A stretch of DNA of 64,000 nt from Leucoraja ocellata (lineage: Eukaryota), in the NCBI GenBank assembly GCA_036785375.1, contig JAWMAR010000424.1:1178001-1242000 (forward strand). Reading direction: 5' to 3'. Below, piece by piece: positions 33,001-57,000 of the stretch (the stretch's first letter is position 1; every line of letters starts with the position of its first letter). A program made the position numbers.

Positions 33001-36000
33001 CCTATGTGGTATGATCTTCCTGGATATCATGCAAAGCAGAGATTTTGGGCTGTATCTCGGTACGCGTTAAACCAATACTAAAACCAATGCCGTTTTCTTT
33101 AAGAGGCATTGGAGGGGAACAAGCAGGAAATGGATGGATATAGAACATATCCAGTTTAAATCGGCATTAATTTAAGGTGGCGGGAAGGAACTGCAGATGC
33201 TGGTTAACACCGAAGAGACGCAAAATGCTGGAGTAACTCAGTGGGTCAGACAGCATCTCTGGAGAGAAGGAATGGAATCAATTTAACATAGCGGGAAGGG
33301 GTGATCTTATAGAGGTGTATAAAATCACGAGAGGAATGGATCAGGTAAATACACAGAGTCTCTTGTCCGGAGGAGAGGAACCGAGAACCAGAGGATTTAG
33401 TTTTAAGGTGAGGAGGGAAAGATTTAATAGGAACCTGAGTGGTAACTTTTTCATACAAAGGGTGGTGGGTGTATGGAACAAGCTGCCGCGGGAGGTAGTT
33501 GAAGCAGGTACTATTGCGACATTTATGAAACATTTAGACAGGTACATGGATAGGACAGGTTTAGAGGGAAATGGGCTAAACGCAGGCAGGTGGGACTAGT
33601 GTTGCTGGGACATGTTTGCCGATGTGGGCAAGTTGGGCGGAAGAGCCTGTTTCCACACTGTATCACTCTATGACTCTATCAAGATTGGCACAGACATTGT
33701 GGGCCAAAGGGCCTGTTCCTACATTGTCTATCATAGTTATACTTCCATACAGCACAAAAACAGGCCCGTCGGCCTGACTCATGCACACCGACCTAGATGT
33801 CCCATCTACACTAGTCCCACCTGCCCGCGTTTGGCCCATATTTCTCTAAACCTTTTCCCATCCATGTGACTGTACAAATGTCTTTTAAATTTTGTTTTGT
33901 AGTACCCGCTTCGACTACCTCCTCTGGCAGTTTGTTCCATACACCCACCATTCTGTGTGAAAAAGTTGCTTCTCAAATTTCTATTAAATCTTACCCCTCT
34001 CACTTAAACCTCTGTTCCCTGGTTATTGAAGATAGACACAAAATGCAGGAGTAACGCAACGAGACAGGCAGCATCTCTGGAGATGGAATGGGTGATGTTT
34101 CAGGGCAAGACCCTTCTTCAGACTGATGTCAGGGGAGAGGGAGATACATTGATTAAGAAGTGTAAGGTGTGAAAATAGGACAAAGGGAATGTAGATCAAG
34201 GACAATGTAGAATAGATCATTGTTCGCTGGTAGAAGGTAACAACAAAGCAAACAGAGAATAAAATGTAGTCGTAGATGTAAGACTGGTCCGAGAACTGGG
34301 AAGGGAGTTGGATGGAGAGAGAGGGGAAGCAAGGGCTACTTGAAGTTAGAGAAGTCAATGTTCATACCGCTGGGGTGTAAGCTGCCCAAGCGAAATATGA
34401 GGTGCTGTTCCTCCAATATGCGCTGGGCCTCACTCTGACAACTGACTAAGTTACAAAGAAAGGTTGAACAAGTTAGGTCTTTATTCTTTGGAGTACAGAA
34501 GGTTAAGGGGGGACTTGATAGAAGTCTTTAAAATGATGAGAGGGATAGACGGAGTTGACGAGGAGAAACTTTTTCCATTGAGAGTAGAGAAGATTCAAAC
34601 AAGAGGACATGATTTGAGAATTAAAGGACAGAAGTTTAGGGGTAACATGAGGGGGAACTTCTTTACTCAGAGAGTGGTAGCTGTGTGGAATGAACCTCCA
34701 GTGGAAGTGATGGAGGCAGGTTCGATTTTATCATTTAAAAATAAATTGGATAGGTATATGGACGGAAAAGGATTGGAGGGTTATGGTCTGAGTGCAGGTA
34801 GATGGGACTAGGTGAGAATAAGTGTTCGGCACGGACTAGAAGGGCCGAGGTGGCCTGTTTCCGTGCTGTAATTGTTATATGGTTATAGCTTTACTTTCCT
34901 TATCACATGTTCTTTATATTCTTCATCTAGCAAATCATTCAGTTACTTTCACTTAGTATTGAATTGTACAAAGGTTGATCTGGCCTAGGAAGTAAAACAG
35001 TGTTTCTACAATAACCAAACCGTTCATGGATATAAAATGGTGTAAAGGGGTGAAGCAAGGATGAACATTCTGACTCTTTGCAGTGTGGTCTCATTTATTT
35101 CAGCATCAGGTGAAGTATTACTGATCAGTTTTTCTTACCTTCTCCCTCTCTGTTACACTATCCTCTGCACTCAGTTTTATTTCTCTTTTTGCACTACCTG
35201 TTACACTCATGTTTGGTATGTTTTGTATAGTTTAGAGATACAGGGCGGAAACATGTCCTTCGGCCCACAGAGTCCGCGCCGTCCAGCGATCCCGTACATT
35301 AACACTATCCTACACACACTGTGGACAATTCTTTACACATACACCAAGCTAATGAACCTATAAACCTGCACATCTTGGAGTGTGGGAGGGAAGCGAAAAT
35401 CTCGCTGAAAACCCACGCAGTCACAGGGAGAACGTAGTCACACAGAAACCCACGCAGTCACAGTAGTCGCGATGGAACCCGGGTCTCCGGTGCTGCAAGC
35501 GCTGTAAGGCAGCAACTCTACCGTTGCACCATCATATGATTGTACACACCTATGTGGTATGATCTTCCTGGATATCATGCAAAGCAGAGCTTTGTGCTGT
35601 ATCTCGGTACGTGTTAAACCAATACTAAAACCAATGCCGTTTTCTTTAAGAGGCATTGGAGGGGAACAAGCAGGAAATGGATGGATATAGAACATATCCA
35701 GTTTAAATCGGCATTAATTTAAGGTGGCAGGAAGGAACTGCAGATGCTGGTTAACACCGAAGAGACGCAAAATGCTGGAGTAACTCAGTGGGTCAGACAG
35801 CATCTCTGGAGAGAAGGAATGGAATCAATTTAACATAGCGGGAAGGGGTGATCTTATAGAGGTGTACAAAATCACGAGAGGAATGGATCAGGTAAATACA
35901 CAGAGTCTCTTGCCCGGAGGAGAGGAACCGAGAACCAGAGGATTTAGTTTTAAGGTGAGGAGGGAAAGATTTAATAGGAACCTGAGCGGTAACTTTTTCA

Positions 36001-54000: not shown

Positions 54001-57000
54001 AATTAGTCTGAATTGCCTAATTCTGCTCCTATCATATGAATTTGAACTTATCTAAGCATTTGGCCCTTATCCCTCTAAACTTTTCCTATCCATGTACTGT
54101 ACAAAAATCTTTTAAATGCTGTTATAGTACCAGCCCTAACTCCCTCCTCTGGCAGCTTGTTCCATTTACCCACCGCCCTCTGAATGTGACCGTTTCCCCT
54201 CTGCTTCCTATCTTTCCCCACTCACCTATGTCCCCTGGTTCTTGATTCCCCTTGGCTGGGGGGTAAAAGTCTCTGTGCATCCACCCCATCTATTCCTCTC
54301 ATGATTCAATACACATTTAATAATTAAATAATTAGAGGTATTAGCCTTTTGTAATGAGCGCTGATGTACATCATCCATGAATAAAGTGAGGGGTCAGATG
54401 TGAAGTGCATCAGGACACTCAGCTCTGGAGATAACTGTTTCACTGATGGAGTCAGTGTGTGGCTCAGCGGCAAAATGGATTCAGGGCAATGAGCAGTGTT
54501 CCACAGTTGAATCACCACCGGTTCAATGTTTGTCTGGTTATGTCTAACAAGTCAGGTTCTAGAAAATTAATCTAGATATATACAACTTTGCAGATTGCCA
54601 TATGTCTAGAAACTTGTACATAAAGGACCACTGATCATACCCAGAGACTGGGGCAGCACAGAATTGCATCAAGTAGAGTTGCTGCCTCATGGCTCCAGAG
54701 ACCTAGGTTCGATCCTGACCACGGGTGCCGTCTGTGTGGAGTTTGCCCATGCTCCCTGTGTCCACGTGGGTTTTCTCCAGGTGCTCCAGCTTCCACCAGC
54801 ATCACAAGGACGTGCAGGATTGTAGGTTAATTGGCCCTCTGTAAATTGCCCCTAGTTTGTAGGGAGAAGATGAGAAAGTGGGATAACATAGAACTAGTGT
54901 GAACAGGTGATCGATGGTCAGCATGGTCTTGGTGGGCTTTAGGGTCTGATCAATCAATTCAATCTCTCAATTCAATTCAATACAATTCATCAAATCAAGG
55001 ATTATTAACACATTCCTGGCCATTTAAGTCAATCTAATGCTTCTTTTATTCAAAAACCAGAAATCAAATTACTCTTTAATTATAATCTGCATCATGGTGA
55101 TGATATGTATAATCCTTGGAATCTTAAATGCTGCAGCTGTTTCACACCCGGGAAATAAACACAATATGTACCAGTTAAGTACAGAACCTAGAACAGTACA
55201 GCACAGGAGCAGGCCCTTCAGCCCACAATGTTGAACATGATGCCAAGATAAACTCATCTTCTCTGCCTGTGTGTGGCCCATGTCCCTCCATTCCCTGCAT
55301 ATCCATGTGTCTATTTATAAACCTCCCAAACGCCACTATCGTTCGTATCTGCCTCCACCACACATAGCAGTGCAGTTCACGGCATCCACTCTCTGTTTAA
55401 AAACATGCCCTGTACATCTTGTTTAAACTTTACTCTCTCACCTTAAAACTATGCTGTCCAGATTCTCACTAATACACCCTGGGTAAATATTCTGACTGCA
55501 CCTTATCTATTTCTCTCACAATTGTATATACTTCCATCAGTTCTCCCCTCCACTTCCGTCATTCCAAAGAAAACAATCCAAATCTATCCAACCTCTCAGT
55601 GTAGCTGATCCCCCTAATCCAAGCAAGCGCTCTGATAAACCTCTTCTGCACCCTTTCCAAAGCCTCCACATTCTTTATGTTACGGGGTGACCAGAACTAC
55701 ACCAATTCCATGAGGGATTAAACCAATCTGATAAGTAGAATAAGTTAGTGATACATTCTGTGGAATATTGTACATAAATCAAAATGCTGGAGGAACTGAA
55801 CGGGTCAGGCAGCATCTGTGGAAGGAATGGAGAGGTGATGTTTCCTCCACAGATGCTGCCTGACCCACTGAGTTCCTCCAGCACTTTGTGTTTTGTTCAA
55901 GATTCCAGCATCTGCAGATTCTAGTGTCTCTGATGAATGTTGTAAATGGCCTAGTATATGTATTATTCACGTTTTCATAGATCTATGCCTGTTTTAACAG
56001 AACATGGAAAAACAATGCTGATTATCGGAGGCATCTGTAGCATCGGCATATTTCTCTGTGTTGTGTGCATAGCATTTTATACGTGGAAGAAGAAATTTAA
56101 AGGTAAACGCTTTTCCATCTTATAGCAATCAACAAAAAATGAAAATTCTGACTGTCTACCCAATCTATGTCTCTCATCATTTTATTTACTTGCATCAGAT
56201 CTCCCCTCAACCTCTGGCATTCCAGAGAAAGATATATTGTCCAGAAAGCTGGAATTGATCTGTGTATTTTTATACTTTTTAAACTGGCACCTGGTCAGCT
56301 TGTTTCCCGGCTAATTGTCTTGTTTATGTTGTTCAGGACCGGTAAATACAACGGACGTTGAAGACCCAAACCGTACACCACTTATCGCCAAGACGGGCTC
56401 ACAAACTGCACGAGGTAATTGATTATGGTGATTAATTATATCGAATACAAGATTCCTATTCTTCCCACGACACACACAATTAGATGAACTTTTAAACCAA
56501 GTTTTGAAACATTAGTACAAAACCACGGGTGCTGTCTGTATGGAGTTTGCACGTTCTCTCTGTGACTGTGCGGGTTTTCTCCATGTTCATAAGTTCATAG
56601 GTTATAGGTTATAGAAATTGGCCATTCATAATCAAACAGTCATACAATGATACAACTTGGAAACAGGCCCTTCGGCCCACCTTGCCCACACCGGCCAACA
56701 TGTCCCAGCTACATTAGTCCCGGTGAGGGCGAAAGGCAAGCAATGAATCTGGAAAATCAAAGTGCAGGAAAATGGGAAGGTAATGCTTTTACTGAAACAT
56801 CAAGTCAACTTTATTTGTCACATACTCATACAAGATGTCCAGTGAAATGAGAGTGGCAATGCTTGCGTGATTGTGCAAAACAACATGAAAGAACAAACAT
56901 AACCAGTATTTACATTTAAAAAAGTAGATGCAACAGCATGAGATCAGAGTTTACAGTCCTAATGGCCTGTGGGAAGGAACTCCATCTCATCCTCTCTGTT

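What the first reader, a model, noticed from the sequence alone, without database searches (positions are those of the whole stretch)
35061..56414. Intact B7-H6/NCR3LG1-like V-C1-TM gene hidden across ~21 kb of transposons
Seen: five exons (49+333+312+102+78 nt), all phase 1, splice into one uninterrupted frame: leader, V, C1, TM, cytoplasmic. No stop codon is reached, so the gene probably continues past 64000. Established: a V+C1 ectodomain is typical of B7-H6, tapasin-related and SIRP-like proteins, and B7-H6 is the ligand of the NK receptor NKp30. The motif pattern (NDNVT, RxGAxxS, SGFYPxxIxITWxKxT, TFNxxSxLK) best fits B7-H6 from recall. Inference: with the upstream tail exons this is a lineage-specific tandem cluster, implying diversified NK-ligand-like genes.
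Basis: partly seen in the sequence, partly recalled or inferred. Interest (0 to 1): 0.72.

Follow-up and report, generated by a model that had tools for sequence, protein, structure and literature searches.

The report
Skate B7-H6-like immune ligand gene
This is an intact gene for a B7-H6-like cell-surface protein in a skate genome, split into five exons by about 21 kb of transposon-filled introns; related fish already have gene models of the same family, so it is a sound but fairly ordinary find.

Summary
They have AG/GT borders, all are phase 1, and the four junction codons give the same residues as a 293-aa NCBI model from little skate ('CD276 antigen-like').

The window is from a cartilaginous fish (a skate), not from a human.

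Each exon was tested on its own. The V exon matches Pfam V-set and the next exon matches C1-set. Among solved structures B7-H6 is the nearest full V+C1 match: 122 bits, against 53-55 for two-domain CD276 and 65 for TAPBPR. The named tetrapod relatives are NCR3LG1.

The 'B7-H6-like' reading is therefore supported. NKp30 binding remains an inference.

The 'no stop, gene runs past 64000' reading is not supported. Reading through the exon-5 donor gives G-N-stop (TGA at 56420-56422), which is exactly the C-terminus of the skate model. The only tail exon downstream (56716-56779) has lost its 5' end to an interspersed repeat.

Three intact 90-nt tail exons upstream (6347, 10657, 14005) match the repetitive tail of a long-tailed skate paralogue. 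This supports a tandem cluster.

The leader exon and its upstream flank are tandemly duplicated.

The spliced protein was never joined or searched.

The parts
31917..36988 (+). Tandem duplication of a 2.5-kb unit (31917-34441 and 34465-36988), each copy carrying a leader exon and its upstream flank
   Evidence: Self-blastn gives 97.9% identity over 2526 bp. The 120 nt before each ATG are near-identical and include GGATATAAAATGG.
32513..32561 (+). Leader exon, upstream copy (alternative first exon)
   Evidence: tblastn gives 16 of 16 residues identical to the other copy. Same donor GTGAAG.
35061..35109 (+).
   Evidence: 16 of 16 residues identical to P0001 residues 1-16.
44332..44664 (+). IgV exon (110 whole codons, Cys23/Cys92, 4 NxS/T sites)
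   Evidence: Pfam V-set 1.2e-10. 98 of 110 residues identical to P0001. PDB B7-H6 46 bits. AlphaFold2 pLDDT 94.4. Foldseek ranks 1-5 are B7-H6 chains, TMq 0.90-0.91.
53406..53717 (+). IgC1 exon (103 whole codons, Cys22/Cys83, 2 NxS/T sites)
   Evidence: Pfam C1-set 56.1 bits against C2-set_2 33.2 bits. 102 of 103 residues identical to P0001. Foldseek hits are MHC class II beta2, beta2-microglobulin and the B7-H6 C domain.
56001..56102 (+). Transmembrane exon (MLIIGGICSIGIFLCVVCIAFY followed by TWKKKFK)
   Evidence: 29 of 32 aligned residues identical to P0001 and 25 of 33 to the skate paralogue P0049.
56337..56422 (+). Cytoplasmic exon. A GT donor follows 56414; read through it, the frame ends G-N-TGA (stop 56420-56422).
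   Evidence: One search prints ...SQTARGN*. P0001 ends ...SQTARGN. In paralogue P0049 the protein continues past the equivalent point (...TGSQTA then PDDAAEI...), so a donor at or near this position is used there.
56716..56779 (+). 5'-truncated relic of a 90-nt tail exon, with its donor and intron flank conserved to 56800
   Evidence: 87% nt identity between 56716-56800 and 6373-6457. Repeat-profile hit 4e-12 covering profile positions 10-30 only. The sequence up to 56720 is an interspersed repeat with 5 other copies in the window at 81-90%.
6347..6436 (+). Intact 90-nt phase-1 tail exon of an upstream paralogue (PVTDVTTGSPDEDENQARNLENPSAVKQE)
   Evidence: 72% aa identity to the P0049 tail repeat. 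Profile E = 9e-21.
10657..10746 (+). Intact 90-nt phase-1 tail exon, second type (PKSDAATRSCDEGEQETAREDTQNAGASE)
   Evidence: 62% aa identity to P0049 residues 491-527.
14005..14094 (+). Intact 90-nt phase-1 tail exon (PDSHVTTGSPHEGKREKENREKQSAGKQE)
   Evidence: 70% aa identity to the P0049 tail repeat. Profile E = 4e-20.
37773..44237 (.). Intron 1 filler: a LINE tail fragment (37773-38444, +), a 21-nt minisatellite (38973-40039), LTR-retroelement RNase H/integrase fragments (42284-43308, -) and a second minisatellite (43772-44237)
   Evidence: Pfam (ALKBH8_N-type segment; RT_RNaseH_2, Integrase_H2C2). TRF.
45037..46601 (+). Intron 2 filler: LINE endonuclease (45037-45510) and reverse-transcriptase (46329-46601) fragments
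   Evidence: Pfam Exo_endo_phos 6e-7 and RVT_1 9e-11.

Best explanation
The region encodes an intact single-pass type I membrane glycoprotein of the B7-H6 (NCR3LG1) family in a skate. It has a signal peptide, one IgV domain, one IgC1 domain, a transmembrane helix and a short tail. Each part is one phase-1 exon, and the introns have been swollen to about 9 kb each by retroelements and minisatellites. The most likely transcript ends just after exon 5: the frame runs through the retained GT to G-N-stop at 56420-56422. That leaves about 35 cytoplasmic residues with no tyrosine. By homology, the V domain is displayed on the cell surface as a ligand for an NKp30-like (NCR3) receptor on cytotoxic lymphocytes. 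The gene lies head-to-tail behind a paralogue whose long acidic tail is built from 90-nt exons. It once had such a tail itself, and lost it when an interspersed repeat destroyed the first tail exon. Shown here: exon structure, domain types, family placement, the duplication, the tail relic and the upstream tail exons. Inferred: expression, the 3' end, receptor binding and the order of events.
For: Exons and phases. Junction codons match P0001 residues D17, A128, E232 and G266. Domain types: Pfam V-set and C1-set. AlphaFold2 models of the two exons, folded separately, have pLDDT 94.4 and 81.9. Foldseek on the V exon: ranks 1-5 are B7-H6 chains (TMq 0.90-0.91, 30% identity). Foldseek on the C1 exon: MHC II beta2 and beta2m, then B7-H6 at rank 23 with the highest identity among the rows listed (32%). 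Family: a profile of three batoid homologues against PDB puts B7-H6 first at 122 bits in one stretch over V+C1. CD276 4Ig scores 105 bits in two stretches, two-domain CD276 53-55, TAPBPR 65 and PD-L1 52. Names: 8 of 30 looked-up top hits are NCR3LG1(-like), including Xenopus, kiwi, marsupial and rodent; 1 of 30 is a 'CD276 homolog'; 21 of 30 are uninformative. Four of the six elasmobranch proteins found are named NCR3LG1-like; one is 'CD276 antigen-like' and one is hypothetical. Trees made per exon: window V + P0001 at 100/98*, within a shark and ray clade at 99/96*, within a cartilaginous-fish clade at 98/94*. 3' end: the window reads ...TARGN* and P0001 ends ...TARGN. Relic.
Against: No transcript data were available, so expression, the choice of leader and the 3' end are unproven. 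P0001 is an automatic model, and its GN end could be a software read-through. The exon-5 donor GT is kept, and a donor at or near the equivalent position is used in paralogue P0049. No AATAAA or ATTAAA lies in 56415-60000. The trees have no outgroup from CD276, HHLA2, TAPBP(L) or SIRP, so placement against those families rests on score ranking only. NCBI named the closest model 'CD276 antigen-like'. In the V-exon search CD276 4Ig has the best total E-value (1.2e-16), because it has two stretches of about 30 bits each. Foldseek margins between B7-H6 and PD-L1 V domains are small (7.7e-11 against 3.0e-10). No NKp30 gene of a skate was examined.
Confidence: 0.75

Rival explanations
1. The gene has a long repetitive cytoplasmic tail. 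Exon 5 splices from 56414 to further exons beyond the relic, perhaps beyond 64000, as in the long-tailed shark and skate paralogues.
For: The GT donor is kept at 56415. Paralogue P0049 has near-identical TM and cytoplasmic exons (25 of 33 and 16 of 23 residues) and continues into a tail of about 400 aa. Many shark homologues carry long tails with many isoforms. No canonical poly(A) signal lies in 56415-60000.
Against: P0001 ends exactly at the read-through stop. The only downstream tail-exon copy lacks its acceptor and its first 26 nt. Both nearby AGs (56707-08 and 56716-17) would make it a phase-2 exon, and entering at 56718 in phase 1 runs into TGA at 56744-46 (sequence). A repeat profile finds no further tail exon in 56.8-64 kb. 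Pfam finds LINE and LTR-retroelement domains there, at 57185-58135 and 60331-62232.
Confidence: 0.13
2. It is a CD276 (B7-H3) orthologue, as the NCBI name of the nearest model says.
For: P0001 is named 'CD276 antigen-like'. CD276 4Ig has the lowest whole-sequence E-value for the V exon.
Against: That E-value sums two stretches of about 30 bits each, whereas B7-H6 gives 46 bits in one. With the V+C1 profile, two-domain CD276 scores 53-55 bits against 122 for B7-H6. The second domain scores 56.1 bits on C1-set against 33.2 on the CD80-like C2-set model. No CD276 chain is among the 60 best PDB hits of the C1 exon.
Confidence: 0.03
3. It is a silent or decaying copy. The reading frame is still open, but the gene is not expressed, its tail is already broken and its introns are overrun by transposons.
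For: The tail-exon relic. No poly(A) signal nearby. No protein marked as the window's own in the hit lists. V-domain divergence of 12 of 110 residues from P0001.
Against: All 5 exons are free of stops and frameshifts, and all 8 splice sites are canonical. Both domain disulfide pairs and the conserved Trp are kept. C1 is 102 of 103 identical to P0001, which argues for constraint.
Confidence: 0.09

Closest known systems
B7-H6 / NCR3LG1 (ligand of the NK receptor NKp30; solved as 3PV6, 3PV7, 4ZSO, 6YJP)
   Same: Same leader-IgV-IgC1-TM-tail layout. It is the best full-length match among solved structures (122 bits, one stretch over both domains). It is the best Foldseek match of the V exon. It shares the motifs NDNVT, RxGAxxS, SGFYPxxIxITWxK and TFNxxSxLK. 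Tetrapod proteins named NCR3LG1 are among the top relatives.
   Different: About 30% identity to the human protein. The tail is about 35 residues without tyrosine, whereas the human tail is long and carries signalling-type motifs (the latter is recalled, not checked). It is one member of a multi-lineage expansion, not a single-copy gene. Receptor binding is untested.
'CD276 antigen-like' of Leucoraja erinacea (P0001, 293 aa, NCBI model)
   Same: Almost certainly the same gene in a close relative, or an allele or recent copy. Identical residues: leader 16 of 16, V 98 of 110, C1 102 of 103, TM 29 of 32 aligned, tail 24 of 24 aligned. Same junction residues and the same GN end.
   Different: 12 of the 16 aligned differences fall in the V exon (12 of 110 against 1 of 103 in C1; Fisher p = 0.003). 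Its name points to CD276, which the tests here do not support.
Long-tailed V-C1-TM paralogues of cartilaginous fish (such as Rhinoraja longicauda P0049, 691 aa; Chiloscyllium P0011 and P0045; Callorhinchus P0031)
   Same: Same ectodomain family (tree). P0049 shares the TM and membrane-proximal tail exons. Its 30-aa tail repeats match the upstream exons and the relic in the window.
   Different: Their V and C1 belong to another lineage: 49 of 110 and 33 of 103 residues identical. They keep tails of 300-1200 residues built from short repeated exons, whereas this gene keeps only a broken relic.
Tapasin-related protein (TAPBPL) and SIRP-alpha
   Same: Both contain V and C1-set domains. TAPBPR scores 65 bits with the profile, and SIRP-alpha scores 55 bits on its C1 domain.
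   Different: There is no tapasin N-terminal domain, because the leader is followed directly by V. There is only one C1 exon, where SIRP has two. The scores are about half that of B7-H6. No SIRP chain is among the 60 best hits of the V exon.

Membership tests
B7-H6 / NCR3LG1 | Type I membrane protein: signal peptide, one IgV, one IgC, TM and tail, with one exon per part in phase 1 | tested here: met
   Exon borders and phases. Pfam V-set and C1-set. Hydrophobic TM exon followed by KKKFK.
B7-H6 / NCR3LG1 | V domain nearest to the B7-H6 V domain among characterised proteins | tested here: met
   phmmer against PDB: B7-H6 46 bits in one stretch, against about 30 bits per CD276 V domain and 22-28 for PD-L1. 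Foldseek ranks 1-5 are B7-H6, TMq 0.90-0.91, 30% identity, though the margin over PD-L1 is small.
B7-H6 / NCR3LG1 | Membrane-proximal domain of the C1 set (as in MHC, Ig and beta2m), not the CD80-like C2 type | tested here: met
   C1-set 56.1 bits against C2-set_2 33.2 bits. Foldseek hits are MHC II beta2, beta2m, B7-H6 C (32% identity) and UrIg2. That this is what sets B7-H6 apart from other B7s is recalled, not checked in a paper.
B7-H6 / NCR3LG1 | Closest relatives outside the lineage are bona fide NCR3LG1 | tested here: met
   The profile search gave 3403 hits at E <= 0.001. Of 30 of the top 150 that were looked up, 8 are named NCR3LG1(-like) (Xenopus tropicalis, Apteryx, Antechinus, Octodon and others), 1 is CD276 and 21 are uninformative. 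These names are automatic.
B7-H6 / NCR3LG1 | Groups with B7-H6 in a rooted tree against CD276, HHLA2, PD-L1/2, BTN, TAPBP(L) and SIRP | not tested
The only proxy is the PDB score ranking. The trees hold family members only and are midpoint-rooted.
B7-H6 / NCR3LG1 | Binds NKp30 (NCR3) | not testable with these tools
   No skate NCR3 sequence was in hand. No complex prediction was run.
B7-H6 / NCR3LG1 | Conserved linkage or synteny | not testable with these tools
   The window holds no other host gene. 16 of 63 long ORFs had Pfam hits; 15 were retroelement-type domains and one (20230-20661) matched OSK/GDSL-lipase models. None was an Ig or other recognisable host-gene domain.
CD276 (B7-H3) | V plus CD80-like C2-type domain pair, with best similarity to CD276 | tested here: not met
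   Two-domain CD276 scores 53-55 bits against 122 for B7-H6. The second domain scores higher on C1-set than on C2-set_2.
Tapasin / TAPBPL | Large N-terminal tapasin domain before the V and C1 domains | tested here: not met
   The leader exon splices straight to V; the junction codon D matches P0001. TAPBPR scores 65 bits, and only over profile positions 51-239.
SIRP | V followed by two C1 domains, with a VJ-type V domain | tested here: not met
   The window has only one C1 exon: tblastn finds no second copy, best non-self E = 1.9. SIRP-alpha matches only the C1 part.

The most novel reading that the evidence does not exclude
The window catches a B7-H6-like tandem array of a skate evolving piecewise. 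The receptor-facing V exon diverges fast: 12 of 110 residues against 1 of 103 in C1, compared with the nearest skate model. The TM and tail exons are shared between paralogues of different ectodomain lineages, which suggests exon exchange or conversion. One member has just lost a long acidic signalling-type tail to a repeat insertion. That would be the footprint of a ligand-receptor arms race with NKp30-like receptors at the base of jawed vertebrates, with long-tailed and short-tailed ligands doing different jobs.
Probability: 0.3. Interest if true: 0.55.

Novelty: new member of a known kind. Interest (0 to 1): 0.3.

Why it matters
B7-H6 and NKp30 form one of the few NK receptor-ligand pairs thought to date back to the first jawed vertebrates. 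A cleanly resolved skate gene, next to a long-tailed paralogue, gives a concrete locus for asking how such ligands multiply and diversify. It would allow cloning the ectodomain for binding tests with skate NKp30. It also corrects the automatic 'CD276-like' label. It is a practical reminder that short-exon immune genes in transposon-rich elasmobranch genomes are easily missed or mis-ended by gene predictors. It does not overturn anything: B7-H6 homologues in cartilaginous fish are in the literature and in NCBI annotations.

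Tried and rejected
Other Ig exons in the window. tblastn with each exon found no second V or C1 exon; the best non-self hits were E = 1.1 and 1.9. The cluster claim therefore rests on tail exons only.

Other host genes. Pfam on 63 long ORFs gave hits for 16. Fifteen were retroelement-type domains and one (20230-20661) matched OSK/GDSL-lipase models. None looked like a host gene.

More tail exons. tblastn with all stored homologues, with the P0049 tail at E <= 50, with a repeat profile and with two DNA patterns found only the three upstream exons and the one relic.

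A TM-like ORF at 55061-55177 with AG and GT borders. I rejected it as an exon because its acceptor is phase 0, and in phase 1 it meets TAA (sequence).

Primary papers. The B7H6/NKp30 paper of Flajnik and others (2012) and the review by Ohta and Flajnik (2015) are not held. I saw only their titles in reference lists. What I say of their content is recalled. A search for 'NCR3LG1' with 'elasmobranch' found 0 papers. A search for 'B7-H6' with 'cartilaginous fish' found 2 papers, neither on this topic judging by title and abstract.

Tools not used. Genome contigs (bacteria and archaea), search_dna_similar (phages, plasmids, E. coli) and the closed metagenome and viral collections cannot hold a skate locus. 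No complex prediction was run, for lack of a skate NKp30 sequence.

Full report
**What the window is.** I take it for a cartilaginous fish, most likely a skate, and not for human. The V exon is 89% identical and the C1 exon 99% identical to an NCBI protein of Leucoraja erinacea. The upstream tail exons match a Rhinoraja longicauda protein. Retroelement fragments are scattered along the whole window: 16 of 63 long ORFs had Pfam hits, 15 of them retroelement-type domains and one an OSK/GDSL-lipase match, and none an Ig or other recognisable host-gene domain. It contains no N.

Direct reading and a script confirm the five exons:
- Leader, 35061-35109 (49 nt).
- V, 44332-44664 (333 nt).
- C1, 53406-53717 (312 nt).
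- TM, 56001-56102 (102 nt).
- Cytoplasmic, 56337-56414 (78 nt).

Each internal exon follows a pyrimidine-rich ...AG, and each is followed by GT. All are phase 1 and none has an in-frame stop.

No search, fold or tree was run on the spliced protein. Instead I checked the joins through the split codons. G+AT, G+CT, G+AA and G+GA give D, A, E and G, which are the residues at positions 17, 128, 232 and 266 of the skate model P0001.

**Domain types, exon by exon.**
- Pfam puts exon 2 in V-set (1.2e-10). It puts exon 3 in C1-set (4.9e-15, 56.1 bits), ahead of the CD80-like C2-set model at 33.2 bits.
- Both Ig exons keep the disulfide pair (Cys23/Cys92 and Cys22/Cys83). They carry 4 and 2 NxS/T sites.
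- AlphaFold2 models of the two exons, each folded with an alignment of 28 homologues, reach pLDDT 94.4 and 81.9.
- Foldseek on the V model puts B7-H6 chains at ranks 1-5 (TMq 0.90-0.91, 30% identity). PD-L1 V domains follow closely at about 20% identity.
- Foldseek on the C1 model returns MHC class II beta2 domains, beta2-microglobulin, the B7-H6 C domain (rank 23, 32% identity, the highest among the rows listed) and shark UrIg2. That is the C1-set neighbourhood.

**Which family.**
- By sequence against PDB, the V exon gives B7-H6 46 bits in one stretch. CD276 4Ig has a lower total E-value only because two V domains of about 30 bits each add up.
- The C1 exon hits UrIg2, Ig heavy chains and SIRP-alpha, and B7-H6 at 48 bits.
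- For both domains together I used stored database proteins, not my own splice. A profile of P0001 with two ray homologues (A1) scores B7-H6 at 122 bits in a single stretch over V+C1. CD276 4Ig scores 105 bits in two stretches, two-domain CD276 53-55, TAPBPR 65, PD-L1 52 and SIRP-alpha 55 on C1 only.
The window exons carry them too.
- The word-index searches found elasmobranch relatives. Four are named 'natural cytotoxicity triggering receptor 3 ligand 1-like' (Hemitrygon, Mobula, Cetorhinus, Scyliorhinus canicula), one is a hypothetical protein of S. torazame, and P0001 is 'CD276 antigen-like'.
- The exhaustive profile search gave 3403 hits at E <= 0.001 and 237 at E <= 1e-30.
- Of the 30 top hits I could look up, 18 are from cartilaginous fish, 7 from amphibians, 2 from a turtle and a kiwi, and 3 from mammals. 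Eight are named NCR3LG1(-like), 1 is 'CD276 antigen homolog', and 21 have uninformative names, several driven by low-complexity tails. All these names are automatic.

**Trees, made separately for the V and the C1 exon.** Each tree has 36 rows: family members with a known organism plus the window exon. They are midpoint-rooted and have no outgroup.
- The window exon pairs with P0001 (100/98* for V, 100/100* for C1).
- In the V tree this pair sits in a clade with ray and shark proteins (99/96*, 8 rows). That clade sits inside a cartilaginous-fish clade (98/94*, 24 rows).
- The cartilaginous-fish clade also holds a lineage with Rhinoraja P0049 and the long-tailed shark proteins, and a lineage with Amblyraja P0008, Hypanus P0050 and Callorhinchus P0031.
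- Amphibian and amniote NCR3LG1 form their own clades (96/91* and 100/99*).
- This fits one vertebrate family with an old expansion in cartilaginous fish. It cannot by itself exclude other V-C1 families, because I could not obtain CD276, HHLA2, TAPBP(L) or SIRP sequences.

**The 3' end.** Read through, the frame is ...SQTAR-G-N-TGA, with the stop at 56420-56422. P0001 ends ...SQTARGN. So the annotated relative uses exactly this end.

Points in favour of a longer form:
- The GT is kept.
- The skate paralogue P0049 has near-identical TM and tail exons (25 of 33 and 16 of 23 residues) and continues past the equivalent point into a long tail.
- There is no AATAAA or ATTAAA in 56415-60000.

Points against it:
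- The only tail-like sequence downstream (56716-56779) is a relic. It is 87% identical to 6373-6457, with the donor and the first 21 intron bases conserved. It lacks the first 26 nt and the acceptor.
- The sequence ending at 56720 is an interspersed repeat with 5 other copies in the window at 81-90% identity.
- The two AGs available (56707-08 and 56716-17) would make it phase 2. Entering at 56718 in phase 1 runs into TGA at 56744-46 (sequence).
- A profile of the 30-aa repeat finds nothing else in 56.8-64 kb. Pfam finds LINE and LTR-retroelement domains there, at 57185-58135 and 60331-62232.

I therefore favour a short tail, and I read the relic as the trace of a lost long tail.

**The cluster.** Three intact 90-nt phase-1 exons lie upstream on the same strand: 6347-6436, 10657-10746 and 14005-14094. 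They match the tail repeats of P0049 at 62-72% aa identity. P0049 is a 691-aa V-C1-TM protein of another skate. These are best read as the tail of a lineage-B paralogue whose Ig exons lie before the window. No second V or C1 exon is inside the window.

**Further anatomy.**
- A 2.5-kb unit holding the leader exon and its upstream flank is tandemly duplicated (31917-34441 and 34465-36988, 97.9% identity). Two identical leader exons (32513 and 35061) can each start the gene.
- Intron 1 holds a LINE tail piece, a 21-nt minisatellite of about 44-51 copies (38973-40039), LTR-retroelement RNase H and integrase pieces on the minus strand, and a second minisatellite.
- Intron 2 holds LINE endonuclease and reverse-transcriptase pieces and a GC-rich block.

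**Divergence pattern.** Against P0001 the identical residues are: leader 16 of 16, V 98 of 110, C1 102 of 103, TM 29 of 32 aligned, tail 24 of 24 aligned. Twelve of the 16 aligned differences are in V (12 of 110 against 1 of 103 in C1, Fisher p = 0.003). By the strand order of the model, nine of the twelve lie in the A', C, C', C'', F-G and G region. That is the face B7-family ligands use for their receptors, which I recall rather than checked. This face is also more than half the domain, so the point is only suggestive. I cannot tell whether P0001 is an orthologue, an allele or a recent copy, and without its DNA no dN/dS could be computed.

**How it most likely works.** The protein is a glycosylated type I surface protein. 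Its V domain is offered to an NKp30-like receptor on cytotoxic lymphocytes. The C1 domain acts as a stalk. The short tyrosine-free tail gives little scope for signalling into the ligand-bearing cell. Receptor binding, expression and regulation are inferred from family membership only.

**Novelty.** B7H6 homologues in sharks and their co-variation with NKp30 were, as I recall, reported by Flajnik and others in 2012. I saw only the title in reference lists, because the paper is not held. NCBI already models this family in many elasmobranchs. The gene is thus a new, possibly unannotated, member of a known kind. The mosaic evolution of the cluster is the part that might repay further work.

**Left unchecked.** I had no transcript evidence and no flanking sequence outside the window, examined no skate NKp30, built no rooted tree with other V-C1 families and read no supplements. 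The closed collections could not have held this locus.

Noticed in passing
window 31917-36988: A 2.5-kb tandem duplication (97.9% identity) gives the gene two identical leader exons with near-identical upstream flanks, each with a TATAAAA about 20 nt before the ATG. Which one is used is unknown.
   Followed up: partly
window 55061-55177 (+): An AG...GT-bounded ORF that encodes a TM-like stretch (YSLIIICIMVMICIILGIL), lying between the C1 and TM exons. Its acceptor is phase 0, and in phase 1 it meets a stop. It has no match in any homologue. It is probably chance in AT-rich sequence, or a dead exon.
   Followed up: partly
window 38973-40039 and 43772-44237: Two related minisatellites in intron 1. 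The first has a 21-nt unit, GTTCCCGTGATCCCAGTCCAT, in about 44-51 copies at 85-86% matches. The second has units of 28-143 nt. They give long spurious ORFs on both strands.
   Followed up: partly
window 48300-50100 (+) and 24000-24750 (-): A GC-rich block in intron 2 (GC 0.57) translates to nearly the same peptide as a block at about 24.0-24.4 kb on the other strand (compare the ORF 49319-49942 with the 24365-24006 row). It looks like a repeated element, perhaps the 5' region of a LINE family, and not a CpG-island promoter of the gene.
   Followed up: no
homologues P0010 (Scyliorhinus torazame), P0049 (Rhinoraja), P0008 (Amblyraja); not in the window: After the TM segment these models carry one or more copies of a beta-strand-looking unit of about 130 aa (...VSWNV...ISLKRKGEQEAK.LFHW.L...) that Pfam does not name (for P0010 and P0008). 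A folded domain on the cytoplasmic side would be odd. It may instead signal fused gene models.
   Followed up: no
homologue P0008 (Amblyraja radiata, 1256 aa): The best-scoring representative has two V-C1 units, a TM-like segment and then four more C1-set domains. It is probably neighbouring genes of the cluster fused by the gene predictor.
   Followed up: no
window TM/tail exons 56001-56414 compared with P0049 and P0002: The TM and tail exons are 76% and 70% identical to the skate lineage-B paralogue P0049, yet have no detectable similarity to the stingray protein P0002, which is closer in its ectodomain. This suggests exon exchange or conversion between neighbouring paralogues in skates.
   Followed up: partly
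window 60331-63304 (-) and 12110-13405 (-): Long open pol fragments of LTR retroelements. The first has RT, RNase H and integrase zinc-binding domains in a 634-aa ORF; the second has RNase H and the integrase zinc-binding domain. The first may be a fairly young insertion.
   Followed up: no
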